Assembly (NCBI GenBank): GCA_944336125.1
Contig: CALVLA010000001.1
Coordinates: 162,516 to 226,515, forward strand
Length of the DNA: 64,000 bases
Direction of reading: 5' to 3'
Origin: an uncultured Clostridia bacterium
GTDB lineage: Bacteria; Bacillota; Clostridia; Christensenellales; CAG-314
The first letter of the stretch is position 1. Each line of letters begins with the position of its first letter. Both the position numbers and the translations under genes were made by a program. Shown one piece after another: positions 17,238 through 51,997 of this stretch. The notes below the pieces were generated by a model, which did no database searches, was not told the DNA's origin, and worked only from the letters and a program-made list of their open reading frames with translations.

Positions 17238-17497
17238 AAAAAGAAAAACGCCCCAAACGCAGGTTTGGGACGAATAAAAACATATCCGCGGTACCACCCA
17301 AATTGATACGCAAGCGTATCCGCTCTGAGGCTCACACAAGCCCAAGACATATTACGGTGTCAACCGGAGCGACTTACTAAGGTTCTGCCGCCCTGCTAAG
17401 AAAGGGATAAACTGTTTAAAGGGTAACCGACTCGCACCACCCGTCGGCTCTCTGACTGCCTGAAAAAAACAATCCGTGTCTTTCGTCAACGCATTTA
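17238..17497 (-). promoter_or_regulatory. T-box riboswitch (transcriptional); specifier possibly AUC (Ile)
   Basis: Minus strand reads GCGTTGACGAAAG (GA motif), AGAGA bulge, GGTGCGA apical loop, stem II with GAA/AGTA, T-box AATTTGGGTGGTACCGCG (17304-17287), then terminator CGTCCCAAAC-CTGC-GTTTGGGGCG-TTTTT. Confidence 0.92.
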
Positions 17498-17646
17498 GGG
17501 GTTTTCAAATTTAACGGAAGTATAACACAACGAAAATCAAAAGTAAAGGAAATTGAAGCATTTTTTGCAAAAGGAAAAAAGGCGTATTGTTGGCAAAACG
17601 CCAGAAAAATAAATAACCCCGACAAAAAGTGGCATACTGTCAACAT

Positions 17647-38890: not shown

Positions 38891-38967
<77 letters not shown>

Positions 38968-38977
38968 TTATGAATAT

Positions 38978-39055
38978 GGCGGCGTAGCTTAGTTGGTCTA
39001 TAGCGGCCGGTTCATACCCGGCAGGTCGTTGGTTCGAATCCGACCGCCGCTACCA
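38978..39055 (+). tRNA. tRNA-Met (CAT), elongator
   Basis: GGCGGCGTAGC..GCCGG-TTCATAC-CCGGC..TTCGAAT..CGCCGCTACCA. Confidence 0.88.
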
Positions 39056-39061
39056 AAGCAA

Positions 39062-39136
39062 GGCCCCTTGGTCAAGCGGTCAAGACATCGCCCTTTCACG
39101 GCGGTAACGCGAGTTCGATTCTCGCAGGGGTCACCA
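39062..39136 (+). tRNA. tRNA-Glu (TTC)
   Basis: GGCCCCTTGGTCAAG..CTTTCAC loop..TTCGATT..GGGGTCACCA. Confidence 0.95.
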
Positions 39137-39139
39137 AAT

Positions 39140-39215
39140 GGGGAGTTAGCTCAGCTGGGAGAGCATCTGCCTTACAAGCAGGGGGTCACAGGTTCGAGCC
39201 CTGTACTCCCCACCA
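39140..39215 (+). tRNA. tRNA-Val (TAC)
   Basis: GGGGAGTTAGCTCAG..CTTACAA loop..TTCGAGC..ACTCCCCACCA. Confidence 0.95.
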
Positions 39216-39609: not shown

Positions 39610-41583
39610 ATGAAAAACTTGCGATGCTATTATTCTGCTGATATTGAAAAATTTTTGCAAACATCAAACAATGAAATTTTAGGAACGATTATATCAAACG
39701 ATAGTTTTTCTGAAATAAAGCTTACCCAAAACAGCACCTGGCAATATGAAATAGAAATTTTAAAAGAACAACTATCTGCATTAAATAATGCTAGAATTAT
39801 ATTTGAATATACTATTCCACGAATGGGCAAACGCGTTGATGTTGTAATACTTTACCAAAACATTGTTTTTTTGTTGGAATTTAAATGCGGAGATAATGCT
39901 TACAAACAAAGTTATATCGATCAAGTACTTGACTATGCTTTGGATTTGCAAAACTTCCAAAAACACAGTCACGATAAATTAATTATTCCAATTGTTGTCG
40001 TTACAGAAGCAAGCAAAAAGAGTTTTTGCACCAACATAAAAGATAATATTGCAGATCCCCTTTTGTGCAATAAGAATAACATAATAGAAGCTATAAAACA
40101 TGTTTGCTTGAGCTATACTCCCGATCCCTTTGACTATCAGGAATGGGAAAACTCAGAATATTTGCCCACCCCCACCATTATTGAAGCCGCACAAGCACTT
40201 TACAGGGGACATAATGTCCACGAAATCACACGTAGCGATGCAGGCGCAAAAAACCTGAGTAAGACGACAGCCGCAATCAACAAAATAATAGAACAGAGTA
40301 AACTTCAAAGGAAAAAAAGTATTTGTTTTATTACAGGTGTACCTGGTGCCGGAAAAACTTTGGTTGGTCTTAATCTGGCTATCGAGCACGCAAATGCAAA
40401 AGATGGCGAACATGCTGCATTTTTGTCAGGAAATCAACCATTAGTTAATGTGTTGCAAGAAGCTCTTGCTCGAGATAAAGTCAAAAATTTACAATTAAAT
40501 GGAATAAGAATAAGCAAAGCTGATGCTTTAAGGGAAACAAGCTCTTTCATTCAAATTATCCATAAATATCGCGATAGTTTTGTTAATAATGAAAATATTC
40601 CGCCAGAAAAAGTCGTTATTTTTGACGAAGCCCAGCGTGCATGGACAAAAGATTACATTCAAAAGTTCATGCAGAAAAAGAAGGGAGTTAATAACTTTGA
40701 TTTTAGCGAACCTGAATTTTTAATAAGCACAATGGACAGACAAAAGGACTGGGCTGTAATTGTTTGTCTTATAGGCGGAGGCCAAGAGATAAATTCAGGT
40801 GAAGCGGGGCTTCCTGAATGGTTTGATTCTTTGCGCCGCAGTTTTAAAGATTGGCACGTATTTGTCACACCTCAGTTAAATGATGAAGAATATAAACGAA
40901 ATAAAGACTGGAATTCTCTTTTAGAAGGATTACAAATTACAGAAAATCCTGATTTACATTTAGCCACTTCCGTGCGCTCTTTTAGAACCCCTGATCTTGC
41001 TGAATTTGTAAAAGCTCTATTAGATAACGAATTTGATTTAGCAAAGAAACTTTATCAAAAAATAAAAGATAAATACCCTATTTTTCTCACAAGGGACTTA
41101 AAAAAAGCAAAAGAATGGGTTAAAAGTAAATCCCGCGGAACGGCAAGATATGGTCTTTTAGCAAGCAGCGGAGCACTTAGATTAAAACCAGACGGAATTT
41201 TTGTTAAAAATGACATTTCCGTGGCCAATTGGTTTTTAAATGATAAAACCGATGTTCGTTCGAGTTATTATTTGGAAGATGTAGTAAGCGAATTTGATGT
41301 TCAAGGATTAGAACTTGATTTTACTGTCGTAGCCTGGGACGCTGATTTTCGTATGCAAAATGGTAGCTGGACCTACAATGAATTTCGCGGAAACAAATGG
41401 TGTAAAATAGCATCAGACGAAAACAAAATGTATCTTAAAAACGCATATCGCGTTTTGCTGACGCGTGCTCGGCAAGGCATGGCCATTTTTATACCAAAAG
41501 GCGACGAAAGTGACAACACGCGCTTACAACCTTTTTATGACAGCACTTACAATTTTTTAAACGCCATACTGGAAAACAACTAA
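39610..41583 (+). CDS. DUF2075 / Schlafen group 3-like helicase with N-terminal PD-(D/E)xK nuclease-like domain
   Basis: EYTIPRMGKRVDVV..LLEFK, Walker A GVPGAGKT, DEAQRAW, QGLELD and YRVLLTRARQG motifs; visibly more AT-rich than neighbours. Confidence 0.85.
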   Translation: MKNLRCYYSADIEKFLQTSNNEILGTIISNDSFSEIKLTQNSTWQYEIEILKEQLSALNNARIIFEYTIPRMGKRVDVVILYQNIVFLLEFKCGDNAYKQSYIDQVLDYALDLQNFQKHSHDKLIIPIVVVTEASKKSFCTNIKDNIADPLLCNKNNIIEAIKHVCLSYTPDPFDYQEWENSEYLPTPTIIEAAQALYRGHNVHEITRSDAGAKNLSKTTAAINKIIEQSKLQRKKSICFITGVPGAGKTLVGLNLAIEHANAKDGEHAAFLSGNQPLVNVLQEALARDKVKNLQLNGIRISKADALRETSSFIQIIHKYRDSFVNNENIPPEKVVIFDEAQRAWTKDYIQKFMQKKKGVNNFDFSEPEFLISTMDRQKDWAVIVCLIGGGQEINSGEAGLPEWFDSLRRSFKDWHVFVTPQLNDEEYKRNKDWNSLLEGLQITENPDLHLATSVRSFRTPDLAEFVKALLDNEFDLAKKLYQKIKDKYPIFLTRDLKKAKEWVKSKSRGTARYGLLASSGALRLKPDGIFVKNDISVANWFLNDKTDVRSSYYLEDVVSEFDVQGLELDFTVVAWDADFRMQNGSWTYNEFRGNKWCKIASDENKMYLKNAYRVLLTRARQGMAIFIPKGDESDNTRLQPFYDSTYNFLNAILENN

Positions 41584-43410: not shown

Positions 43411-43662
43411 TTATTTCTTTTTGATCAACGTAAAGGTATTGTTTTCAACTTGGTATGCTTCGGAAAACTCGATGTTTTTTTCCGCAAGCGTTTGTTCCGC
43501 CTTGTCAACGTTTTCAGGCGAAACCGCAAGACACAGTCCGCAGCCTGCCCTTATGGCATTTGGTACGGGTCTCACTTTGACGGCTATTTTTGCAGACAGC
43601 AAGGCCTGTTCGCCGGCAATGACGGCATGAGTGTTCGGAAACGTATAAAAAATTTCAATCAT
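43411..43662 (-). CDS. DUF3343 domain protein (putative Se/S carrier-like)
   Basis: TFPNTHAVI..PVPNAIRAGCGLC; start ATG 43662 overlaps the yedF stop. Confidence 0.8.
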   Translation of the reverse strand: MIEIFYTFPNTHAVIAGEQALLSAKIAVKVRPVPNAIRAGCGLCLAVSPENVDKAEQTLAEKNIEFSEAYQVENNTFTLIKKK

Positions 43663-44279
43663 CAGATGTTGATTACCTTTTGCGCGCCGTCCATAAATTC
43701 GACGATATCGTACATGTTTGCGATTTCGCCGACGGCTACTTTGTCTTTTACGTTGAAGAAGTCGACGCAAGTGCCGCAAACGCGAATTTGAGTACCTTTT
43801 TCCTGCAAGGATTTGAGGTCGTCGAGAGTGTTTGCGCCTTCGAGAGCGAGGTTTACGCCGGAGTTGAAAAAGAGAACTGCCTTAGGCGGAACTTCAAGCT
43901 GAGCCAGCGAGAAGATAAATCCTTTGATGAGGATTTTGCCGAGGTCGTCGCTTCCCTTTCCCATTTTGTCCTGACTGATAGCCACCACAAGGCCTTCGCC
44001 TCTGACCATAGCCGCAGGAGTAGCCTGAGGAGCTTGAGCTTCAGCAGTAACCTGACCTTCGCCCACGGTAACGGTAACTTCATACTGTTTGTCGGCAACT
44101 TTAACCACGTCGCATTTGAGGCCTTTTTTGTCAGCCATTTTGCCGAGGTTTTCGCAAGCGATGGCGTTGTCGACAAGCACTTTGATAACTCCGCCTTCAG
44201 GAGGAAGTTTTTCGATTTCTTTTTTTGTTTTAATTACAGGAACGGGACAAAGCAATCCCATGCAATCGATAACAATCAT
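43662..44279 (-). CDS. yedF: Selenium metabolism protein YedF (SirA/TusA domain plus DsrE-like domain)
   Basis: IDCMGLLCPVPVI, VDN..ENL, MGKGSDDLGKIL, FFNSGV, CGTC and NMYDI motifs. Confidence 0.88.
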   Translation of the reverse strand: MIVIDCMGLLCPVPVIKTKKEIEKLPPEGGVIKVLVDNAIACENLGKMADKKGLKCDVVKVADKQYEVTVTVGEGQVTAEAQAPQATPAAMVRGEGLVVAISQDKMGKGSDDLGKILIKGFIFSLAQLEVPPKAVLFFNSGVNLALEGANTLDDLKSLQEKGTQIRVCGTCVDFFNVKDKVAVGEIANMYDIVEFMDGAQKVINI

Positions 44280-45400
44280 AACAGTATCCCCTTTTTTAAA
44301 ATTTCTTTAACGCCGTCAACGGCGGTAAGTACATCGTTTTGAGTGTTGAAGTGTGAGAAAGAAAACCTCACGGCTCCTCTGTTTTGCGTGCCCAAAGTTT
44401 TGTGCATAAGCGGTGCGCAGTGAGCTCCTGCCCTGACGGCAATCGAGTAGTGTTCGTAAAGGAAGTTTGCCACGTCGCCGCTGTCGAAGTCCTTGATGTT
44501 TAGCGACGCCACCGGAGTGCGAAGTTTCGCGTCAATGTCTCCGTAAAGTGTTACGCCGTCAAGTCCCCTTACTTCCTGAATAAACATACGCGCGAGCTTG
44601 TCCGCCTCCGAAAAAGCTTTGCCTTCGAGTGAGGTAACGTAATTTATGCCTGCGAGAAGCCCCGCTATGCCGTGAGCGTTTTGAGTACCCGCTTCCAATG
44701 CGTCGGGCATTTCGGACGGATGGGTCGGCGAAAATGATTCGCTGCCGCTGCCACCCACTACGAGAGGCTGAGGCTGAAAACCGTTTTGCAGAAGTATTCC
44801 CCCCGTTCCCTGCGGACCGTAAAGCGACTTGTGCCCGCTGAAACAAACTGCCGACAAAAAGATTTTTTTAACGTCTATCGGAATAAGCCCCGCAGTCTGC
44901 GCTGCGTCGAGCATGAATTTTAAATTGTGCTTGCGGCAAATTTCACCTACCGCAAAAATGTCAAATACGTTTCCCGTGAGGTTGGACGCATGACACATCA
45001 CAACCGCCTCGGTATCGCTTTTGATTGCTTTTTCGATATCGCTTGCGTCAAGCCTTCCCTTTTCGTCGAGAGAAACAACGGTGTAATTTCCCCTTCTGAA
45101 AACGGGACGCAAAACGCTGTTGTGTTCCGCCGCCGTAATTATGACGTGACCTTTGAGGGAGGAAATCGCAATGTTGAGTGCCGCAGTCGCGTTTTGAGTG
45201 AAAGCGACGTTCAAAGGATTGTCTGAATTGAAAAGGTCCGCCACTGCCATGCGCGCCCTCAAAAGACATCTCAGTCCGTTGAGAGAGGCGTCGTATGAGC
45301 CTCGCGAGGGGTTGCCGCAACTATTTAAAGCGTCACATACCGCTTTGACGACTTCGTCGGGTTTTGGCAAAGTGGTAGCGGCATTGTCGAGATATATCAT
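44276..45400 (-). CDS. Cysteine desulfurase / selenocysteine lyase family (class V PLP enzyme)
   Basis: YLDNAATT, EHNSV, HASN, DAAQ, SGHKSLYGP and RAGAHCA motifs. Confidence 0.9.
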   Translation of the reverse strand: MIYLDNAATTLPKPDEVVKAVCDALNSCGNPSRGSYDASLNGLRCLLRARMAVADLFNSDNPLNVAFTQNATAALNIAISSLKGHVIITAAEHNSVLRPVFRRGNYTVVSLDEKGRLDASDIEKAIKSDTEAVVMCHASNLTGNVFDIFAVGEICRKHNLKFMLDAAQTAGLIPIDVKKIFLSAVCFSGHKSLYGPQGTGGILLQNGFQPQPLVVGGSGSESFSPTHPSEMPDALEAGTQNAHGIAGLLAGINYVTSLEGKAFSEADKLARMFIQEVRGLDGVTLYGDIDAKLRTPVASLNIKDFDSGDVANFLYEHYSIAVRAGAHCAPLMHKTLGTQNRGAVRFSFSHFNTQNDVLTAVDGVKEILKKGILL

Positions 45401-45585
45401 AAAAAGCACCCTTAATCTAAAAATCTTCGTTAACATTATACAACATTATTTTCAAAAAGCAACAAAATATAAATCTCAAAGAGGCAAAAGACGGCTTAAT
45501 CCTTGAAAAGGCCGAAAAACTATGTTAAACTAATATTCAGCAAAATTCTGAAAAACTGTTGCCTTTGGCAATCGGAGGAAGACAT

Positions 45586-46980
45586 ATGAGCAAGCAGGAA
45601 GCATTGAGGTCGATGCCCCGCGTCGACGACGTAATAGCAAGAGTAGAAGCAGAGCCAAAAGCCAAAAACATTTCGTATCACGAGCTTTTGAGCTGCGTCA
45701 GGGAGACGCTTGACGGCATAAGGAAAGACATTTTGGCGGACAAAACCGACAAAGTGCCTGACGTTTCGGAAATAGTAAAGGCGGTAATCAAAACCGCGGT
45801 TAAAAAATGTTCGTTTAGTTTAAGACCTGTAATAAACGCGACCGGCGTAGTGCTGCACACCAATTTGGGAAGAGCGGTACTTGCCGAAGCGGCTGCGGAA
45901 AACGTGAGTCAGGTAGCGAGAGAATACAACTCTCTCGAATACTCGCTTGAAGAGGGCTGCCGCGGAAGCAGACATTCGCACGTCGAATCGCTCATCTGCA
46001 AACTGACGGGAGCGGAAGCGGCAATGGTTGTAAACAACAACGCGGCTGCCGTAATGCTTTTGCTTGCGGCGATGTGCAAGGACAGAGAAGTCGTGGTGTC
46101 ACGAGGCGAACTGGTTGAAATAGGCGGTTCCTTCCGCGTGCCTGAAATCATGAGCATGAGCGGCGCGCACCTTAAAGAGGTAGGCACTACCAACAAAACC
46201 AAACCGTCCGACTATGCCGAAGCGATTAACGAAAACACTGCGGCTCTTTTGAAGGTACACACCAGCAACTTTAAAATCGTAGGTTTTTCCGAACAGGTAA
46301 AAATCGACGAAATGGTAAAAATAGGTCACGACCATAACATACCCGTTATTTACGACGTAGGCAGCGGACTTATGGTTGAAGGCGAAAAAGTAGGTCTTTA
46401 CGACGAAGTGGGCGTCAAGGAAAGCGTAAAAGCAGGCGCGGACATCACGTGTTTTTCCGCCGACAAGCTTTTGGGCGGACCTCAGGCAGGTATAATCGTC
46501 GGCAAAAAGAAATACGTCGAAATGATGAAAAAGCATCAGCTGGCAAGGGTAGTCAGGATAGACAAACTCAATCTTGCCGCACTTGAAGCGACAATACGAA
46601 TTTATCTGGACCCTGAAAGGACCTTTAAGGAAATCCCTACCCTTTCCAACCTCGCGATAACAAAAGCCGAACTCAAAATCAAGGCAAACAAACTTTGCGG
46701 ACTTTTGCCTGTACGCAAAAACAGTTTTTCGGCAACGGTAAAAACAAGCGAATCGCAGGTAGGCGGCGGTTCTGCGCCGGGTGAAATGCTCCCTTCCTAC
46801 GCTGTGCAGATTACCCCAAAAACTATGTCGGCGGCAGATCTCGAAAAAGCTCTCCGCGAAAACGAAGTGCCTATCATATGCCGTATCCACAAAGGCTGCG
46901 TTTTGCTTGACCCTCGCACTATTTTCGAAAATCAGTACGCCGAAATAGTAAGAGCCTTTGAAAACATTTTTGCGGAATAA
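45586..46980 (+). CDS. selA: L-seryl-tRNA(Sec) selenium transferase
   Basis: VINATGVVLHTNLGRA, VVNNNAAA, SRGELVEIGGSFR, EVGTTNKT, PLP-Lys SADKLLGGPQAG and VGGGSAP; GGAGG SD. Confidence 0.95.
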   Translation: MSKQEALRSMPRVDDVIARVEAEPKAKNISYHELLSCVRETLDGIRKDILADKTDKVPDVSEIVKAVIKTAVKKCSFSLRPVINATGVVLHTNLGRAVLAEAAAENVSQVAREYNSLEYSLEEGCRGSRHSHVESLICKLTGAEAAMVVNNNAAAVMLLLAAMCKDREVVVSRGELVEIGGSFRVPEIMSMSGAHLKEVGTTNKTKPSDYAEAINENTAALLKVHTSNFKIVGFSEQVKIDEMVKIGHDHNIPVIYDVGSGLMVEGEKVGLYDEVGVKESVKAGADITCFSADKLLGGPQAGIIVGKKKYVEMMKKHQLARVVRIDKLNLAALEATIRIYLDPERTFKEIPTLSNLAITKAELKIKANKLCGLLPVRKNSFSATVKTSESQVGGGSAPGEMLPSYAVQITPKTMSAADLEKALRENEVPIICRIHKGCVLLDPRTIFENQYAEIVRAFENIFAE

Positions 46981-47058
46981 AAAATGTCAAAACAAAAGGC
47001 CGCCTTTCAAAGGCGGTTTTTTTTTGTCAAAATATTGCCGAAAATGCTTTTTTTAAGC

Positions 47059-47087
47059 TTGATAAATTTTAAGATACGTGATAAAAT
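47059..47087 (+). promoter_or_regulatory. SigA promoter of the tRNA-Sec-like gene
   Basis: TTGATA-17-TAAAAT with extended TG. Confidence 0.75.
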
Positions 47088-47103
47088 ATATAGGCTAATC
47101 CAT

Positions 47104-47199
47104 GGGAATGGATGGGTGCTGGTGTACCCTCCGGCTTTAAAACCGGTATGGGAAGTTAGGAGCTGCCTGGGTGGGTTCGATTCCCACACGTTCCCGCCA
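47104..47199 (+). tRNA. selC: tRNA-Sec-type tRNA with non-canonical anticodon arm (loop CUUUAAAA, UUA at the anticodon position)
   Basis: 96 nt; 6-bp D stem GGGTGC/GTACCC with TGGT loop, long variable arm, GTGGG-TTCGATT-CCCAC T arm, extended acceptor stem, G73-CCA; directly downstream of selA. Confidence 0.9.
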
Positions 47200-47202
47200 T
47201 TT

Positions 47203-47228
47203 GAACCGAATTTTCGGTTCTTTTTTTT
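47203..47228 (+). terminator. Intrinsic terminator of selC
   Basis: GAACCGAA-TT-TTCGGTTC followed by T8. Confidence 0.8.
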
Positions 47229-47249
47229 CGTCCTCGACGGGCGTTTGCC

Positions 47250-47523
47250 TTGCAAAAAAAGCCCGTTTCTATTATAATATTACGTAATATTACGAAAGGT
47301 AACATTTTGCGACGGAATTTTCAGCTCCTGTTTCGTCTCAATGCCGCCCGACGCTCCTTATCGGGCGCGAAAAAACCGATTCCGACACTTGTCGACGCTC
47401 CTGTTTCGGTATACCTTGTCAAAATGAAATATCTCCCTGTCGGTTTGTCGCACTCGGACTCTCCTACCCGGCAGGCTTTACATATACGAAAACGCAATTT
47501 TGCAATATTTTGGGGAGAGTTTT
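47250..47523 (+). promoter_or_regulatory. Promoter, palindromic operator and ~240-nt structured leader of the yedE-sirA-DUF3343-selD operon
   Basis: TTGCAA-17-TATAAT; 18-bp perfect palindrome 47275-47292; five CTCC(T) motifs, several in hairpin loops. Confidence 0.65.
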
Positions 47524-48585
47524 ATGAAAAACTTCATAGTAAAAAATTACAAGTACTTCCTTGCCGGCATCATCATCGGTTTGGTGGCGTTGGCTTTGAC
47601 CTTGATGGGAAACCCGCAAAACATGGGCTTTTGCATCGCTTGCTTTTTGAGAGACATCGCGGGCAGCACGGGTATGCACTCGGCGGCAATCGTACAGTAT
47701 TTCCGTCCTGAAATCGTAGGTATCGTACTCGGCGCCTTTGTGATTTCCGTCATCCGCAAGGACTTCAAACCTACCGGCGGTTCCGCTCCCGTAACACGTT
47801 TTGTTCTCGGCGTAGCGGTTATGGTAGGCGCGCTTATCTTCCTCGGTTGCCCTCTGCGTATGGTACTTCGTATCGGCGGCGGCGACATGAACGCTGTTAT
47901 CGGTCTTTTGGGCTTCATCGCAGGTATCGGCGTTGGCGCAATCTTTTTGAACAAAGGTTTCACCCTCAAACGCTCGTACGACCTTCCTTTGCTTGAAGGC
48001 GCAATAGCACCTGCATCGTCGGCTTTCCTTTTCATCTTGTTTTTGGCAGCGCCTTTCCTTTTCGTGTTCAGCGAATCGGGTCCAGGCTCCATGCACGCTC
48101 CGATCTGGGCTGCTCTCATCGGCGGTCTTATCGTAGGTATCGTGGGTCAGCGTCTGCGCGTTTGCTTCGTAGGCGGTATCCGTGACTCCATCATGTTCAG
48201 ACAGTTCCAGATGATTTATCCTTTCATCATGGTCATCGTAACTATGATTATCGGAAACCTCATCAACGGTACTTTCAACTTCGGTTTTGAAAATCAGCCT
48301 GTCGCTCACACCGACTGGTTGTGGAACTTCCTCGGCTTGTTTATCGTAGGCTGGGGCTCCACCTTCCTCGGCGGCTGCCCGTTCAGACAACTCGTTCTCG
48401 CGGGAAGCGGAAACAGCGACTCTACAATCACAGTTATCGGTATGATAGTAGGTGCGGCAATGGCTCACAACTTCGGGCTTGCCTCCTCTGCTGCGGGAGT
48501 TACCACAAACGGCATGATTGCCGGCGGTATCTGCATCGCAGTTATACTTATCATCGGTTTGCTTAACCGCAAAAAGGTCGCATAA
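47524..48585 (+). CDS. yedE: YedE-family putative selenium transporter
   Basis: GNPQNMGFCIACFLRD, YFRPE, FLGCPLR, PGSMHAP, NQPVAH and GGCPFRQ motifs; polytopic. Confidence 0.9.
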   Translation: MKNFIVKNYKYFLAGIIIGLVALALTLMGNPQNMGFCIACFLRDIAGSTGMHSAAIVQYFRPEIVGIVLGAFVISVIRKDFKPTGGSAPVTRFVLGVAVMVGALIFLGCPLRMVLRIGGGDMNAVIGLLGFIAGIGVGAIFLNKGFTLKRSYDLPLLEGAIAPASSAFLFILFLAAPFLFVFSESGPGSMHAPIWAALIGGLIVGIVGQRLRVCFVGGIRDSIMFRQFQMIYPFIMVIVTMIIGNLINGTFNFGFENQPVAHTDWLWNFLGLFIVGWGSTFLGGCPFRQLVLAGSGNSDSTITVIGMIVGAAMAHNFGLASSAAGVTTNGMIAGGICIAVILIIGLLNRKKVA

Positions 48586-48596
48586 AAAAGGAGGAA

Positions 48597-48818
48597 ATGA
48601 CAATGATGAAAATAGACGCACGCGGACTCAGCTGTCCGGAACCGTTGCTTATGCTTAAAAACGGGCTTAAAAAGAACAAGGAAAACGAAGAAGTCGAATT
48701 GGTACTCAGCTGCCAAAACGCTTTGGAAAACTGTACCAGATACGCCGAAGGACAGGGATACAAAGTTACCCTGGAAAAAGACGGCGAAGACTACAAACTT
48801 TTGATGAAAAAGGACTAA
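48597..48818 (+). CDS. SirA/TusA-like sulfur/selenium transferase
   Basis: IDARGLSCPEP motif, 73 aa, AGGAGG SD. Confidence 0.88.
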   Translation: MTMMKIDARGLSCPEPLLMLKNGLKKNKENEEVELVLSCQNALENCTRYAEGQGYKVTLEKDGEDYKLLMKKD

Positions 48819-48822
48819 AAAA

Positions 48823-49074
48823 TTGAAGACATACATCGCTACGTTTTTTACACATTTCGGCGCGCTTACCCTATCGAAAAAGTGCAAAGCCACCGGAATA
48901 AAATCGCAACTGATGCCTGTGCCGAGGAAATTAAGCTCATCGTGCGGCACCTGCGTAAAGTTTGAGGCTGAAAACTTCGACGTCGTATTTCACTCGGACG
49001 TCGAGGAAGAACTTGAAAACTGTTACGAAATGCTGGGCGCCGACCAATTTAAGGCGTTGATAAATAATAAATAA
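48823..49074 (+). CDS. DUF3343 domain protein
   Basis: ATFFTHFGA..MPVPRKLSSSCGTCV. Confidence 0.82.
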   Translation: MKTYIATFFTHFGALTLSKKCKATGIKSQLMPVPRKLSSSCGTCVKFEAENFDVVFHSDVEEELENCYEMLGADQFKALINNK

Positions 49075-49111
49075 TCCGTTTTTGCTTTATTTATTATTAA
49101 AGGAGAAAGAA

Positions 49112-50140
49112 ATGGATATAAAAAAGATTATGAAACTGCCTGCATGCGGCGGCTGCATGGCAAAACTTCCGCCGGGAATGCTTAAAGACGTCGTATCGCA
49201 GATTCCTGTGTTTAACGATCCAAACCTGCTTGTCGGATTTGACACTTCCGACGACGGAGCGGTATACAAATTGAGCGACGACATTGCAATCATTCAGACG
49301 CTGGACTTTTTCACCCCTATGGTAGAAGACCCTTACACCTTCGGCAAAATCGCGGCGGCAAACGCATTGAGCGACGTATATGCCATGGGCGGCAGAGTTG
49401 CGGTAGCCCTCAACATCGTGTGCTTCCCTGAGGAAGACGACCCTGCGGTACTCGCCTCGATACTTCGCGGCGGCGCGGAAAAGGTTATGGAAGCGGGCGG
49501 CGTGCTTTGCGGCGGCCACTCGATAAACGACAGGGAATGCAAATACGGCTTGTCGGTAACGGGCGTTGTTCATCCGGACAAGTACCTCAGAAACAACACC
49601 TGCAAAAAAGGCGACGTCATCATTTTGACAAAACCTTTGGGTGTCGGTATGATTATGGCTTCCTATCGTTACGGCGAAGTTGCCGAGGAAGATTATCAAC
49701 AGGCACTTAAAAGCATGCAGACTCTCAACAAGTACGCTTTTGAGGCTGCAAGCAAGTTCCACCTTCACGCAGGCACCGACGTAACGGGCTTCGGATTTTT
49801 GGGACACCTCAACGAGATGACAAACGACGACTATACGATAGCGGTGGAAAGCAAAGGCGTCAAATACATTCCGGGCGCGCTGAAACTTGCTCAGGAATTT
49901 TTGACAACGGGCGGCGGACAAAAGAACAGGAACTTCCTGAAAGGAAAAGTCAGGTTCCAAAACGTTCCCGACGCCATGCAGGAAGTATTGCTCGACCCTC
50001 AGACATCGGGCGGCATGCTTTTGAGCGTACCGGCAAACGAGGCGAAAGAACTCATGAAAGAACTCAACGACCTCGAGCTGCCGTCATGCATTATCGGCGA
50101 AGTTCAGGAAAGACAGGACGCCAACATCATAGTTTACTAA
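49112..50140 (+). CDS. selD: Selenide, water dikinase (Cys-type)
   Basis: CGGCMAK (both codons TGC), SDDGAV, QTLDFFTP, ANALSDVYAMGG, GGHS, TDVTGFG and DPQTSGG motifs; AAGGAG SD. Confidence 0.95.
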   Translation: MDIKKIMKLPACGGCMAKLPPGMLKDVVSQIPVFNDPNLLVGFDTSDDGAVYKLSDDIAIIQTLDFFTPMVEDPYTFGKIAAANALSDVYAMGGRVAVALNIVCFPEEDDPAVLASILRGGAEKVMEAGGVLCGGHSINDRECKYGLSVTGVVHPDKYLRNNTCKKGDVIILTKPLGVGMIMASYRYGEVAEEDYQQALKSMQTLNKYAFEAASKFHLHAGTDVTGFGFLGHLNEMTNDDYTIAVESKGVKYIPGALKLAQEFLTTGGGQKNRNFLKGKVRFQNVPDAMQEVLLDPQTSGGMLLSVPANEAKELMKELNDLELPSCIIGEVQERQDANIIVY

Positions 50141-50185
50141 AAAAATGCGGGGCTTGCTTTTGCAAGCCTTCGTTGTATTAAAAAT

Positions 50186-51319
50186 ATGATTTATTTAGAT
50201 AACGGAAGCACGTCCTTTCCCAAAGCGGAAGGGATGAGCGAATTTGTAAAAAAATTTTTGGACGAAAGGTGTTTCAACATAAACCGCGGAGCCTACTCCT
50301 CCTCTACCGACACTTCGGAGCTTGTTTACGACACACGTGAAAAAGCCGCGGAATTTTTCGGCGGAGAAAAGGGCAAAAAAGTGATATTCACAAGCGGAGT
50401 CACATTTTCGCTTAATCTTGTTTTAAACGGTCTTTTGGGTAACGGCGACAAAGCGGTAACCACTTATATGGAACATAACGCGGTGCTTCGCCCTCTTTCG
50501 AAACTGACCAAGCAAGGTACGGAGGTAAACTTCGTCAACTGTGACGGAAACGGCGAAATAGATTTGAACGACCTTGAAGAAAAACTCAGACAAAACCCGA
50601 AAGTATGTGTGGTCACCCACGCCTCAAACGTGTGCGGCACAATTATGCCCATTAAGGAAATAGGCGCACTGTGCAGACGCTACGGCGTAATTTTCGTTGT
50701 GGACGCGGCGCAGACGGCAGGCGTCGTCGACATCGACATGAGCCGCGACAACATCGACGTTTTGTGTTTTACGGGACACAAAGGACTACTTGGCATGCAG
50801 GGAATAGGCGGAGTGATTTTCGGCGGCGACACCGCGGAAATTTGTTCCCCTTTCTGCTACGGCGGAACAGGCAGCTTTTCGCACACAACCGAAATGCCAA
50901 AAATACTTCCCGACAAGTTCGAGGCAGGCACACTTAACCTTCCGGGAATAGCGTCGTTAAACTACTGCTTCGATTTTCTCAAACAAAAAGGCATACAAAA
51001 TATTTTTGCCCACGAAAAGAAACTTCAGGCACTTTTCGAAGAGGGCGTCAAGCAGCTTAATAACGTCGAAATCATCGGCGGAAAAGCCAAAAACCGCTGC
51101 GCCGTAACTTCGCTTGACTTCAAAAACGTCGACAACGGCGAGGCGTCGTTTGTGCTTGACACAGAGTACTCGATTATGACGCGAAGCGGACTTCACTGCG
51201 CCCCTTACGCTCACAAAACGCTAGGTACTTTCCCACGGGGAACGGTACGCTTTGCCTTCGGCTACAAAACCACCGAGGAGGAAGTCAAAAAGGCAATACA
51301 AGCCGTCGCAAAAATTTAA
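50186..51319 (+). CDS. Cysteine desulfurase / selenocysteine lyase family (class V PLP enzyme), second paralog
   Basis: YLDNGSTS, EHNAV, HASNV, DAAQ, TGHKGLLG and RSGLHCA motifs. Confidence 0.9.
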   Translation: MIYLDNGSTSFPKAEGMSEFVKKFLDERCFNINRGAYSSSTDTSELVYDTREKAAEFFGGEKGKKVIFTSGVTFSLNLVLNGLLGNGDKAVTTYMEHNAVLRPLSKLTKQGTEVNFVNCDGNGEIDLNDLEEKLRQNPKVCVVTHASNVCGTIMPIKEIGALCRRYGVIFVVDAAQTAGVVDIDMSRDNIDVLCFTGHKGLLGMQGIGGVIFGGDTAEICSPFCYGGTGSFSHTTEMPKILPDKFEAGTLNLPGIASLNYCFDFLKQKGIQNIFAHEKKLQALFEEGVKQLNNVEIIGGKAKNRCAVTSLDFKNVDNGEASFVLDTEYSIMTRSGLHCAPYAHKTLGTFPRGTVRFAFGYKTTEEEVKKAIQAVAKI

Positions 51320-51424
51320 AAGTTTTTAAACCCGCGCAAGCGGGTTTTTTTTCACAGCAATTTCGAAAAAAACATAACATACATTGTGCGGATACAACGG
51401 GTACATATTGACAAGGAGGTATAT

Positions 51425-51997
51425 ATGCGAATTTACACAATTTCAATATGTTGTCCGCCATGCAAGCCGCGGTGCTGTCCTCCGCCTTGCAGACCGCGCT
51501 GCCGAATGAGGTACTGCGAATTTTTTACCGACAGACCATGCGGCAGATATTACGCGATTCCGCAAGGATATACGGGATACGTTCCGTCACCCATGACTCC
51601 GCGCGCAAGCGGAATAACAACAAGCTATTCCCCGTCGCAAAACGTTGCGGCGGGCAACAACTTTTTGTTGGGAACAACCGTCAACAGCTTCGGCAGTTCA
51701 CTGGCTTTAAACGTCCCCTTTCAACGAATTTCCGTTTTGAAAAGCGGCTACTACAGAGTAACATATTCTTTTCAGGTTACCTCCCCCGTCGCGGGAACTC
51801 TTTCCACAATGATTGCGGGAATGCCTGAAACGAAAATATTCAGTTTTCCGCCGCAGAATGCGCCGTACAGGGTTTTTGCCTCGTACACCGTATATCTGAC
51901 TCAAGGCAGCCAACTCGCCTTACAGCTCATTACAGCGCCCGACGGCAGTTCCGTCACCGCTTCGCAGTTTAATTTTTCAGTTAAGGAACTGTTATAA
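51425..51997 (+). CDS. Cys/Pro-rich putative spore coat/exosporium protein with BclA-CTD-like beta domain
   Basis: N-terminal CCPPCKPRCCPPPCRPRC; C-terminal SGYYRVTYSF..LTQGSQLALQ; AGGAGG SD; SigK-like ACA-16-CATAACAT at 51354-51380. Confidence 0.65.
   Translation: MRIYTISICCPPCKPRCCPPPCRPRCRMRYCEFFTDRPCGRYYAIPQGYTGYVPSPMTPRASGITTSYSPSQNVAAGNNFLLGTTVNSFGSSLALNVPFQRISVLKSGYYRVTYSFQVTSPVAGTLSTMIAGMPETKIFSFPPQNAPYRVFASYTVYLTQGSQLALQLITAPDGSSVTASQFNFSVKELL

What the first reader, a model, noticed from the sequence alone, without database searches (positions are those of the whole stretch)
43411..51319. Selenium cluster with SelA, SelC variant and SelD but no SelB: candidate translation-independent Sec/selenium relay
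Seen: DUF3343-yedF-desulfurase (minus strand), divergent from selA, the selC variant, yedE, sirA-like, DUF3343, selD and a second desulfurase. selA is intact with its PLP lysine motif and is followed directly by a terminator. No selB, selU/mnmH or yqeB/yqeC occurs in these 64 kb. Every candidate Sec position in the cluster is Cys (SelD CGGCMAK, YedF CPVP/CGTC, SirA CPEP, DUF3343 CGxC). Known: selA and selB are usually adjacent in Clostridia, and yedE, yedF, sirA-like and DUF3343 genes are SelD-associated. Inference: YedE imports Se, SelD makes selenophosphate, and SelA builds Sec on a non-decoding tRNA. The PLP lyases and small Cys carriers could then mobilise Se for a cofactor, metabolite, storage or detoxification. 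That would be a Se-utilisation route outside the selenoprotein, selenouridine and Se-molybdoenzyme traits.
Basis: partly seen in the sequence, partly recalled or inferred. Interest (0 to 1): 0.85.

Follow-up and report, generated by a model that had tools for sequence, protein, structure and literature searches.

The report
Selenocysteine tRNA that lost its anticodon
A genus of small gut bacteria has lost the factor and the anticodon needed to put selenocysteine into proteins, yet carefully keeps the enzymes and a trimmed tRNA that make selenocysteine, which points to an unknown use of selenium outside protein synthesis.

Summary
The window carries DUF3343-YedF-desulfurase, divergent from selA, a tRNA-Sec-like gene (47104-47199), yedE, a TusA-like gene, DUF3343, selD and a second desulfurase.

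- **No known selenium use.** SelB, SelU, YqeB, YqeC and molybdenum hydroxylases were found in 0 of 5 genomes of the genus. SelA and SelD are in 5 of 5.
- **The genus is exceptional.** All 137 other SelA-carrying genomes tested have SelB.
- **The tRNA cannot decode.** The tRNA beside selA keeps its acceptor, D, variable and T arms, G73 and CCA. Of 23 base pairs, 11 show compensatory changes. Its anticodon loop is 3-4 nt in four species and 8 nt here.
- **SelA is under selection.** It keeps its tRNA-binding domain and catalytic residues, with dN/dS about 0.1-0.2.
- **The old clients are gone.** The sister genus has grdA/grdB selenoprotein genes followed by selA-selB-selC. The grd genes are absent here.

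Best reading: selenocysteine is made on a non-decoding carrier RNA for a non-ribosomal use. What consumes it is unknown. Five literature searches found no description.

The parts
43411..43662 (-). DUF3343 / Se_S_carrier protein a (CGxC motif). The ORF runs to 43779, but the start is probably the internal Met near 43662.
   Evidence: Pfam PF11823, E 1.5e-19, residues 46-109 of the 122-aa ORF. Present beside YedF in G001, G002 and G003.
43662..44279 (-). YedF, a sulfurtransferase-like selenium metabolism protein
   Evidence: TIGR03527, 211.9 bits, cut-off 110. Found in 5 of 5 genomes of the genus.
44276..45436 (-). Desulfurase 1, a NifS/SclA-like PLP enzyme, divergent from selA
   Evidence: TIGR01977, 377.1 bits (cut-off 377). 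SclA model 290 bits, below its cut-off of 525. Adjacent to selA in all 5 genomes.
45559..46980 (+). selA, L-seryl-tRNA(Sec) selenium transferase, full length with N-terminal tRNA-binding domain
   Evidence: TIGR00474, 598.9 bits. Aligns to A. aeolicus SelA residues 5-447. K303, R105, R330, R333, R138, D302 and S300 are invariant in 8 sequences. dN/dS 0.09-0.2.
46999..47026 (+). Intrinsic terminator after selA (hairpin plus T-run)
   Evidence: Sequence; the hairpin is listed.
47059..47087 (+). Sigma-70-like promoter of the tRNA-like gene (TTGATA, 17 nt, TAAAAT, preceded by TG)
   Evidence: 10 of 12 matches. TTGACT-17-TATAAT at the same place in G001 and G004.
47104..47199 (+). tRNA-Sec-derived carrier RNA ('tRNA*'). 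It has a 7-bp acceptor stem, a 6-bp D stem with a 4-nt loop, a long variable arm, a 5-bp T stem, G73 and an encoded CCA. The anticodon arm is a 4-bp stem (47131-47134 / 47143-47146) with an 8-nt loop (47135-47142).
   Evidence: Rfam RF01852, 58.7 bits. Not called by ARAGORN. Fold. Comparison with 7 relatives.
47203..47228 (+). Intrinsic terminator directly after the CCA end
   Evidence: Equivalent hairpin plus T-run in G001, G002 and G004.
47250..47523 (+). yedE promoter (47250-47278) and a leader of about 245 nt with repeated GCUCCU motifs
   Evidence: No Rfam match. Function not tested.
47500..48585 (+). YedE family putative selenium transporter
   Evidence: TIGR04112, 482.9 bits. Found in 4 of 5 genomes of the genus, not in G003.
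48597..48818 (+). TusA/SirA-like small sulfur/selenium carrier (CPEP motif)
   Evidence: Pfam TusA, E 1.5e-18.
48823..49074 (+). DUF3343 / Se_S_carrier protein b (CGTC motif)
   Evidence: Pfam PF11823, E 6.6e-14.
49082..50140 (+). selD, selenide, water dikinase (Cys form, CGGCMAK)
   Evidence: TIGR00476, 372.8 bits. 82-87% identical within the genus. Found in 6 of 82 genomes of the family, the same six that have SelA.
50186..51319 (+). Desulfurase 2, a SclA-like PLP enzyme
   Evidence: TIGR01977, 438.4 bits. SclA model 403.4 bits, below its cut-off of 525. An orthologue follows selD in the sister genus G019.

Best explanation
The locus encodes a selenocysteine-synthesis module that has been uncoupled from translation.

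**Shown by sequence**
- The genus lacks SelB and every other known selenophosphate user.
- Its tRNA-Sec descendant has no usable anticodon loop.
- That RNA is conserved as an L-shaped, CCA-ended, SerRS/SelA-type substrate with its own promoter and terminator.
- SelA keeps its tRNA-binding domain, PLP lysine and selenophosphate-binding arginines under purifying selection.
- SelA, the RNA, SelD and the selenium supply genes have been gathered into one locus.

**Inferred pathway**
1. YedE, YedF, the TusA-like protein, DUF3343 and the SclA-like lyases bring selenium to SelD.
2. SelD makes selenophosphate.
3. SerRS serylates the carrier RNA. It is reported to read the long variable arm, the acceptor stem and G73, not the anticodon.
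4. SelA converts Ser to Sec on the RNA. [quoted passage not shown]
5. Sec-RNA cannot enter the ribosome. It either releases free Sec or hands Sec or selenium to a non-ribosomal acceptor.

My best guess for the last step, at low confidence, is that the RNA is a scaffold for selenium-specific synthesis of Sec. The neighbouring SclA-like lyase (desulfurase 1) with YedF and DUF3343 would then use that Sec as a protein-bound selenium donor. Trimming the anticodon loop would keep Sec out of translation once SelB was gone.
For: **Absence of known selenium users**
- SelB is over the cut-off in 0 of 5 genomes of the genus, which are 94-95% complete. The six weak hits in G000 are EF-Tu, IF-2, LepA, TypA, EF-G and Der.
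- SelU, YqeB, YqeC and MoCoBD_1 are each in 0 of 5.

**Retention of SelA and SelD**
- SelA and SelD are each in 5 of 5 genomes of the genus.
- Each is in only 6 of 82 genomes of the family, the sixth being the Sec-decoding G019.

**How unusual this is**
SelB was found in every other SelA-carrying genome tested.
- Relatives: 3 of 3.
- Class sample: 54 of 54, 53 of them over the cut-off.
- Phylum sample: 80 of 80, being the first 80 of 270 SelA-positive genomes.

**The RNA**
- Relatives with SelB have the normal CUUCAAA loop.
- The five SelB-less species have arms of CCGG/CUUUAAAA/CCGG, UCAGG/CUUG/CCUGA, UCGG/GCAA/CCGA, UCUGU/UUU/ACAGA and UCUG/CUUG/CAGA.
- In the other four helices 97.8% of cells pair. 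Eleven of 23 pairs change on both sides, against 1-3 when the partner is slid, and 0 of 500 shuffles reach that value.
- The RNA is 71-81% identical between species, against 44-58% for its flanks.
- G73 and CCA are kept in 8 of 8.
- It has its own promoter and terminator.
- The G002 form is identical in an independent metagenome contig.

**SelA**
- Amino-acid identity is 59-72% between G000 and the other four species (60-84% among those four). dS is saturated and omega is 0.09-0.20. The closest pair gives dN 0.111, dS 0.975 and omega 0.11.
- The N-terminal domain aligns to A. aeolicus SelA from residue 5.
- The equivalents of A. aeolicus K285, R86, R312, R315, R119, D284 and S282 are invariant. 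Their roles are taken from PMC4607533, section 21.

**Literature**
[quoted passage not shown] **History**
- The sister genus has grdB(Sec)-trxB-grdA(Sec)-grdC-grdD-selA-selB-selC.
- tblastn with those Grd proteins finds nothing in G000.
- selA and the RNA now sit directly upstream of the yedE-selD block, which lies on another contig in the sister genus.

**Expression (weak)**
Contigs from four animal-gut RNA libraries of four studies cover parts of selA, yedE and selD at 95-100% identity. The tool warns that DNA carry-over cannot be excluded.
Against: - No experiment shows that the RNA is transcribed, processed, serylated or converted. The read data are contigs and do not resolve the 96-nt gene.
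- No consumer was found. FemAB, Acetyltransf_6 and Leu/Phe-transferase families are in 0 of 5 genomes.
- Stand-alone LPG_synthase_C (DUF2156) genes are in 5 of 5. They are also in 16 family genomes that lack SelA, so they are not specific.
- If Sec is simply released and degraded by the neighbouring lyases, the pathway looks like a futile cycle unless an unknown acceptor exists.
- All five genomes are metagenome-type assemblies of 20-210 contigs.
- dS is saturated for most pairs, so omega values are rough.
- The window's own RNA still has a large loop with UUA in the anticodon position. For this species alone, 'cannot decode' rests on the broken stem, the 8-nt loop, the lack of SelB and the sister species.
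- I ran no genome-wide selenoprotein gene scan.
Confidence: 0.7

Rival explanations
1. Slow decay. The genus lost selB and its selenoproteins. selA, the tRNA remnant and selD are functionless leftovers that have not yet been deleted.
For: - The anticodon arm is degenerate and differs between species.
- 76 of 82 genomes of the family have lost SelA and SelD altogether, so loss is the common fate.
- SelA evolves faster than SelD: within the genus, 59-72% (84% in the closest pair, G001-G004) against 81-87% identity.
Against: - selA is intact in 5 of 5 species although synonymous sites are saturated. Omega is 0.09-0.2 and all catalytic and tRNA-binding features are kept.
- The RNA keeps four helices through compensatory changes, plus G73, CCA, a promoter and a terminator, while its flanks have diverged to the level of random alignment.
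- The genomes are only 1.2-1.6 Mb, so useless DNA is unlikely to persist.
- The grd genes and selB were removed cleanly while the genes on either side stayed.
Confidence: 0.06
2. Selenium-independent reuse. SelA and the RNA have taken on a job unrelated to selenium, as proposed for the orphan SelA of Helicobacter pylori. Examples would be another beta-replacement on Ser-RNA, or a serine or cysteine carrier.
For: - Orphan SelA under selection is documented in H. pylori and some Frankia (PMC4607533: abstract and sections 21-22 read).
- PLP enzymes change function easily (same paper).
Against: [quoted passage not shown]
- SelD is co-retained in 5 of 5 genomes and lies in the same locus. In G003 it stands directly after the RNA.
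- The selenophosphate-binding arginines are invariant.
- A CysK-like gene is present in 5 of 5 genomes, so a tRNA route to cysteine is not obviously needed.
Confidence: 0.1
3. Regulatory or sensor RNA. The tRNA-like RNA no longer carries an amino acid to any acceptor. It reports selenium status, as a Ser- versus Sec-charged form or by SelA binding, to control the neighbouring yedE-selD operon.
For: - The RNA is its own transcription unit, wedged between selA and the long structured yedE leader.
- Non-translating pseudo-tRNAs with regulatory effects are known, for example B. cereus tRNA-Other (PMC3399842, search listing and abstract start only).
Against: - In G003 yedE and its leader are absent, yet the RNA is kept and is followed directly by selD.
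- G73, CCA and the full SelA catalytic apparatus would not need such strict conservation for a binding-only role.
- No T-box-like or other partner element was found.
Confidence: 0.08
4. Hidden decoding. SelB lies in the unassembled 5% of each genome or is replaced by another factor. The window's RNA, with UUA in an 8-nt loop, reads UAA or a four-base codon.
For: - The genomes are 94-95% complete.
- tRNA-Sec species with non-UCA anticodons, including ones that read UAA, were reported by Mukai et al. 2016.
- These RNAs have a 7/5 acceptor/T-stem layout that EF-Tu might tolerate (inference).
Against: - SelB is missing in five independent assemblies. In 134 of the 137 other SelA-positive genomes tested it lies within a few hundred bases of selA (3 of 3 relatives, 50 of 54 class, 81 of 80... 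for coordinates; a few have it on another contig). Here that place is taken by the RNA, 123 nt after selA.
- There is only one EF-Tu gene and no extra EF-Tu-like gene.
- Four of five species have 3-4-nt loops that cannot present an anticodon.
- The only selenoprotein genes seen in the sister genus are gone.
Confidence: 0.03

Closest known systems
Canonical bacterial Sec-decoding system (selA-selB-selC-selD), as in the sister genus G019 and E. coli
   Same: - SelA has its N-terminal tRNA-binding domain and catalytic residues.
- SelD is the Cys form.
- The tRNA has a 6-bp D stem, a 4-nt D loop, a long variable arm, G73 and CCA.
- The supply genes are the same: YedE, YedF, TusA-like, DUF3343 and a SclA-like lyase.
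   Different: - No SelB.
- No 7-nt anticodon loop and no UCA.
- The grdA and grdB selenoprotein genes are absent.
- All genes are gathered in one locus.
Orphan SelA of Helicobacter pylori / H. acinonychis and some Frankia (Cravedi et al. 2015, PMC4607533)
   Same: [quoted passage not shown] The PLP lysine and the selenophosphate-binding arginines are conserved.
   Different: - There, SelA lost its tRNA-binding N-terminal domain and its decamer contacts, and selC, selD and selB are all gone.
- Here the N-domain, the pentamerisation residues (equivalents of T191, T192, D199 and R174), the tRNA and SelD are all kept.
tRNA-dependent amino-acid synthesis used as the cell's only source of the free amino acid: Asn in Thermus and Deinococcus, Cys in Methanococcus maripaludis (Sheppard et al. 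2008, PMC2330236, passages)
   Same: An amino acid is built on a tRNA by converting a precursor aminoacyl group. The pathway serves metabolism beyond decoding.
   Different: Those tRNAs are normal decoding tRNAs. Here the carrier has given up decoding altogether, and release of free Sec is inferred, not shown.
Aminoacylated tRNA-like RNAs without an anticodon (tmRNA) and non-translating pseudo-tRNAs (B. cereus tRNA-Other, PMC3399842; tmRNA review PMC3985003; both seen as search listings only)
   Same: A tRNA-shaped acceptor/T-arm module with a CCA end but no anticodon function.
   Different: - tmRNA still works on the ribosome.
- This RNA keeps the complete D arm and variable arm of tRNA-Sec.
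- It is paired with a tRNA-dependent amino-acid-converting enzyme.
Orphan-SelD organisms and the selenium-dependent molybdenum hydroxylase trait (Haft and Self 2008, PMC2276186; Zhang et al. 2008, PMC2432076; Peng et al. 2016, PMC5029168)
   Same: SelD with a NifS-like lyase in genomes that lack selenoproteins and selenouridine, pointing to another selenium use.
   Different: - YqeB, YqeC and molybdenum hydroxylases are absent here.
- The retained selenophosphate user is SelA with its RNA.
- Peng et al. mention SelA homologues in genomes without a complete trait only in passing, with details in a supplementary table I could not open.

Membership tests
Bacterial Sec-decoding trait | SelA with tRNA-binding N-terminal domain and PLP lysine | tested here: met
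   TIGR00474, 598.9 bits. Aligns to A. aeolicus SelA 5-447. K303 is invariant.
Bacterial Sec-decoding trait | SelD | tested here: met
   TIGR00476, 372.8 bits. Present in 5 of 5 genomes of the genus.
Bacterial Sec-decoding trait | SelB elongation factor | tested here: not met
   0 of 5 genomes over the cut-off. The hits in G000 are EF-Tu, IF-2, LepA, TypA, EF-G and Der. The same search finds SelB in 137 of 137 other SelA-positive genomes.
Bacterial Sec-decoding trait | tRNA with a 7-nt anticodon loop that reads UGA (or another recoded codon) | tested here: not met
   The loop is 8 nt in G000 and 3-4 nt in G001-G004. No other UCA or suppressor tRNA is among the 43 tRNAs of G000.
Bacterial Sec-decoding trait | Selenoprotein genes with in-frame UGA | tested here: inconclusive
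   The GrdA, GrdB, GrdC and GrdD genes of the sister genus have no tblastn match in G000. No genome-wide selenoprotein scan was run.
tRNA-Sec (Rfam RF01852) | Score at or above the gathering threshold (47 bits) | tested here: met
   G000 58.7, G002 49.2 and G003 48.0 bits. G004 (36.6) and G001 (35.4) are below it.
tRNA-Sec (Rfam RF01852) | 6-bp D stem with 4-nt loop, long variable arm, G73, CCA | tested here: met
   D helix 100% paired in 8 sequences; G73 and CCA invariant.
tRNA-Sec (Rfam RF01852) | Anticodon stem-loop with U33 and anticodon UCA | tested here: not met
H. pylori-type orphan SelA | [quoted passage not shown] | tested here: not met
   The domain, the tRNA-like gene and SelD are all kept.
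Selenouridine trait | SelU (tRNA 2-selenouridine synthase) | tested here: not met
   TIGR03167, 0 of 5 genomes.
Selenium-dependent molybdenum hydroxylase trait | YqeB, YqeC and a xanthine-dehydrogenase-family enzyme | tested here: not met
   TIGR03309 0 of 5, TIGR03172 0 of 5 and PF02738 0 of 5.
Aminoacyl-tRNA-dependent transferase systems (Fem, L/F-transferase, MprF-like) | A transferase gene linked to, or co-occurring with, the special tRNA | tested here: inconclusive
   FemAB, Acetyltransf_6 and Leu_Phe_trans are each in 0 of 5 genomes. LPG_synthase_C is in 5 of 5, but also in 16 of the 77 family genomes outside the genus (one of them, G019, carries SelA). Cyclodipeptide synthases, LanB and PEARL enzymes were not searched.

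The most novel reading that the evidence does not exclude
This is a further SelD-dependent way of using selenium. Selenocysteine is built by SerRS and SelA on a dedicated carrier RNA that evolved from tRNA-Sec by discarding its anticodon. Sec, or its selenium, is then passed to a non-ribosomal acceptor such as a cofactor, a small molecule or a post-translational modification. It would be the first natural case of a tRNA kept only as a scaffold for amino-acid synthesis.
Probability: 0.55. Interest if true: 0.92.

Novelty: new variant of a known kind. Interest (0 to 1): 0.87.

Why it matters
- Selenocysteine synthesis has only ever been tied to the ribosome. SelB and selC are treated as the signature of the trait, and SelA without them is usually dismissed as a remnant or a repurposed enzyme.
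- Here comparative data show selection on SelA, on SelD and on every part of the tRNA except the part that reads the code. That makes a non-translational role for Sec-tRNA directly testable with a small defined gene set of about 8 kb.
- If confirmed, it would add a new selenium utilisation trait. It would also explain some 'incomplete' selenium gene sets in genome surveys and change how selA-positive, selB-negative gut genomes are annotated.
- It would provide a natural SerRS/SelA substrate that is invisible to the ribosome. That is of interest for selenoprotein engineering and for ideas on how tRNAs acquire non-coding roles.

Tried and rejected
- **Metagenome pattern scan for more copies of the carrier RNA.** It found one contig, identical to G002's RNA, so no new lineage.
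- **The search for related loci with SelA in genome contigs.** Only one distant hit (Fervidicella, 53%), which was not useful.
- **RNA evidence.** Only contigs from RNA libraries were available. They cover parts of selA, yedE and selD, but they cannot show transcript ends, strand or the 96-nt RNA, and DNA carry-over cannot be excluded. I use them only as a weak hint, and as a hint of an animal-gut habitat.
- **Search for a consumer.**
  - FemAB, Acetyltransf_6 and Leu_Phe_trans are absent.
  - Stand-alone DUF2156/LPG_synthase_C genes are present but not specific to the genus.
  - The flanking genes are glycerol metabolism, MATE pumps, SpoIIE, TilS and a Schlafen-type helicase, which offer no lead.
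- **tRNA-dependent cysteine supply.** Weakened by a CysK-like gene in 5 of 5 genomes.
- **Convergent, independent truncation of the anticodon loop.** The SelA tree leaves G000 and G003 unresolved at the base of the genus. A single truncation after G000 split off cannot be excluded, so I do not claim convergence.
- **Checking whether desulfurase 1 and the first DUF3343 are gains specific to the genus.** I could only see that they are not beside YedF in G019.
- **SelB test of the phylum sample.** I wanted all 270 SelA-positive genomes, but only 80 handles fit one call, and it was the last search.
- **Literature.** Searches found no paper describing a tRNA-Sec without an anticodon or a conserved SelA+SelD+tRNA set without SelB. 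Supplementary Table S1 of PMC5029168, which lists organisms with SelA but an incomplete trait, could not be opened and may hold related cases.
- **Earlier notes of this scan.** They hold no case of this kind.

Full report
**What is in the window**

On the minus strand:
- a DUF3343/Se_S_carrier gene, 43411 to about 43662
- yedF, 43662-44279
- a NifS/SclA-like PLP enzyme, 'desulfurase 1', 44276-45436

On the plus strand:
- selA, 45559-46980 (598.9 bits)
- a tRNA-Sec-like gene
- yedE, 47500-48585
- a TusA-like gene, 48597-48818
- a second DUF3343 gene, 48823-49074
- selD, 49082-50140
- 'desulfurase 2', 50186-51319

The tRNA-like gene is found by Rfam RF01852 at 47104-47195 with 58.7 bits, against a gathering score of 47. 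ARAGORN does not call it. With its G73 and encoded CCA it runs to 47199.

It is a separate transcription unit.
- selA ends in its own hairpin and T-run, at about 46999-47026.
- A TTGATA-17-TAAAAT promoter lies at 47059-47087.
- A terminator follows the CCA at 47203-47228.

**The genome and the genus**

The window lies in a 1.24-Mb genome that is 94.6% complete and has 20 contigs.

| Feature searched | Result |
|---|---|
| SelB model in this genome | six hits, all below the cut-off: EF-Tu, IF-2, LepA, TypA, EF-G, Der |
| SelB in the four other species of the genus (94-95% complete) | none over the cut-off |
| SelA and SelD in the genus | 5 of 5 each |
| SelU, YqeB, YqeC, xanthine-dehydrogenase-type molybdenum domain | 0 of 5 each |
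| tRNAs in this genome | 43 ordinary tRNAs, no UCA, UUA or CUA suppressor |

So SelA is the only known user of selenophosphate left, and the machinery to deliver its product to the ribosome is missing.

**How unusual that is**

- In the family (82 genomes, 18 genera), SelA and SelD occur in the same six genomes. These are the five of this genus and G019, the sister genus.
- G019 and two SelA-positive genomes of the order have selB directly after selA.
- In a class-level sample, 56 of 400 genomes had SelA. All 54 SelA-positive ones that I then tested (the other two being G000 and G044, already covered) have a SelB match. 53 are over the cut-off and one is cut at a contig end.
- In a phylum-level sample, 271 of 401 genomes had SelA. 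I could test only the first 80 of the 270 others, and 80 of 80 have SelB.
- Together, 137 of 137 SelA-positive genomes outside the genus have SelB, against 0 of 5 inside it.

**The RNA**

The three SelB-positive relatives have an ordinary selC with the loop CUUCAAA, scoring 66.7-70.8 bits. The five SelB-less species each have the homologous gene right after selA. Their anticodon arms are as follows.

| Species | Anticodon arm (stem/loop/stem) |
|---|---|
| G000 (the window) | CCGG/CUUUAAAA/CCGG |
| G002 | UCAGG/CUUG/CCUGA |
| G003 | UCGG/GCAA/CCGA |
| G001 | UCUGU/UUU/ACAGA |
| G004 | UCUG/CUUG/CAGA |

- The MFE folds give exactly these hairpins inside a cloverleaf for G000, G002, G003 and G001. 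The G004 fold did not give a cloverleaf, so its arm is read by homology.
- Four of five species therefore cannot present an anticodon at all.
- Compared with its relatives, the window's RNA has lost one stem base and has C35 changed to U.

Everything else is conserved.
- On an alignment of the eight RNAs, the acceptor, D, variable and T helices are paired in 97.8% of cells.
- Eleven of 23 pairs change on both sides, against 1-3 when the 3' partner is slid by 1-3 columns. None of 500 column shuffles reaches the observed value.
- The D loop UGGU, the T loop UUCGAUU, G73 and CCA are invariant.
- Between species the RNA is 71-81% identical while its 100-nt flanks are 44-58% identical, which is about what unrelated sequence gives. 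For the closest pair the figures are 96% against 61-70%.
- Promoter-like and terminator-like elements recur at the same places with different sequences.
- An independent metagenome contig carries the G002 form unchanged.

This pattern means selection on the whole tRNA body, with none on decoding.

**SelA**

- Within the genus SelA is 59-72% identical between G000 and the other four species, and 84% in the closest pair.
- Synonymous sites are saturated in most pairs.
- Where dS could be computed, omega is 0.09-0.20. The closest pair (G001-G004) gives dN 0.111, dS 0.975 and omega 0.11.
- The PLP lysine and the selenophosphate-binding arginines are invariant in all eight sequences. So are the residues that position those arginines, PLP-contact residue S282, and pentamerisation residues T191, T192, D199 and R174.
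- The roles of these residues are taken from PMC4607533, section 21.

This is the opposite of the H. pylori orphan SelA, which lost the tRNA-binding domain and its decamer contacts (PMC4607533: abstract and sections 21-22 read).

[quoted passage not shown] A review states that none of the tRNA-Sec enzymes bind the anticodon arm (PMC7609411, passage). So a trimmed anticodon arm should not prevent serylation or conversion. This is an inference, not a test.

**History of the locus**

- In the sister genus G019 the order is yedF (opposite strand), grdE-like, grdB, trxB, grdA, grdC, grdD, selA, selB, selC.
- grdB and grdA there have in-frame TGA at the classic UxxCxxC and CFVU sites.
- yedE, the TusA-like gene, DUF3343, selD and desulfurase 2 form a separate block on another contig.
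- None of GrdA, GrdB, GrdC or GrdD has a tblastn match in the window's genome.
- The SelA tree puts the genus as a clade (support 95/98) next to G019.
- The simplest history is this. The genus lost the glycine reductase selenoproteins and selB, and the anticodon decayed or was trimmed. selA, the RNA and the selD block ended up side by side.
- In G003 even yedE, the TusA-like gene and DUF3343b are gone. The order there is selA, RNA, selD.

**What it most likely does**

Shown by sequence:
- no SelB
- no anticodon
- no other selenophosphate user
- conservation of SelA, SelD and the RNA body

Inferred:
- SerRS charges the RNA and SelA makes Sec on it.
- Sec-RNA is used off the ribosome.

The end use is unknown.
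- Most neighbouring genes are the ordinary supply line into SelD, because they are the same in the Sec-decoding sister genus.
- Desulfurase 1 and the first DUF3343 stand next to selA in all five species and were not seen beside yedF in G019. They are my candidates for acting on the product, but I could not test this.
- Known aminoacyl-tRNA transferase families gave no specific lead.
- tRNA-dependent pathways that serve as the only source of a free amino acid are a precedent: Asn in Thermus and Deinococcus, Cys in M. maripaludis (PMC2330236, passages).
- The same review notes that free Sec must be kept low because CysRS can misuse it. That would fit a tightly channelled route.

**Rivals**

- **Plain decay.** This is contradicted by the intact, constrained selA, by the compensatory changes in the RNA, and by the clean removal of the genes around them.
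- **A selenium-independent new job for SelA.** This is made unlikely by the co-retained, co-located SelD and the invariant selenophosphate site.
- **A purely regulatory RNA.** This is hard to square with G003, where the supposed target is gone.
- **Hidden decoding.** This would need selB to be missed in five assemblies and cannot work with 3-4-nt loops.

**Limits**

- All genomes are metagenome-type assemblies.
- There is no experimental evidence that the RNA is expressed or charged. Contigs from four animal-gut RNA libraries cover parts of selA, yedE and selD. They cannot prove transcription and do not resolve the RNA.
- Omega values are rough because dS is saturated.
- No genome-wide selenoprotein scan was run.
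- The phylum test covered 80 of 270 SelA-positive genomes.

**Novelty**

- Five full-text searches and passages of the main comparative papers found no description of a tRNA-Sec without an anticodon. The papers were PMC5029168, PMC1794560, PMC5330540, PMC13188914 and PMC7609411.
- They also found no description of a conserved SelA-SelD-tRNA set without SelB.
- PMC5029168 mentions SelA homologues in genomes with incomplete traits, with details in a supplementary table I could not open.
- Earlier notes of this scan hold no such case. Here I searched the whole genome and genus for it and did not find it.

Noticed in passing
window 47279-47523: The yedE leader of about 245 nt holds several GCUCCU motifs, complementary to a Shine-Dalgarno sequence. 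The yedE leaders of G001 and G002 have them too. No Rfam match. It may be an unrecognised regulatory RNA of selenium uptake genes.
   Followed up: partly
L035 (G004) about 2400-2560, upstream of yedE: Four direct copies of a motif of about 16 nt (TTTATTTGACACTTTT-like) precede the yedE promoter in G004, and two or three in G001. They may be operator sites.
   Followed up: no
L036 427-1755 and 3154-3633 (G019:C2): The sister genus has grdB and grdA with in-frame TGA at the known Sec positions, directly upstream of selA-selB-selC. A standard ORF call would cut both genes short.
   Followed up: yes
window 51386-51997: A 203-aa protein has a Cys/Pro-rich N-terminus (CCPPCKPRCCPPPC...) and a weak BclA_C-like C-terminal domain (E 1e-4, below the Pfam cut-off). 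It may be a spore-surface protein. It was not found next to selD in G003.
   Followed up: no
window 39610-41583: A 657-aa protein with a Schlafen group 3-type DNA/RNA helicase domain (PF09848, E 5e-82) lies between a tRNA cluster and the selenium locus.
   Followed up: no
G000:C2:146241-146975 and G000:C13:766-1545: Two stand-alone LPG_synthase_C (DUF2156) genes of about 320 aa, from an aminoacyl-tRNA-dependent transferase fold. One or two copies are in all five species, but also in 16 family genomes without SelA.
   Followed up: partly
window 17263-17498 (-) and 38891-39215 (+): A T-box leader (106 bits) and a cluster of four tRNA genes (Met, Met, Glu, Val). Both are ordinary.
   Followed up: no
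L032 (G003) 7900-8230: In G003 the carrier RNA has no obvious terminator and selD follows within about 130 nt. yedE, the TusA-like gene and DUF3343b are missing from the locus, and yedE was not found anywhere in that genome.
   Followed up: partly
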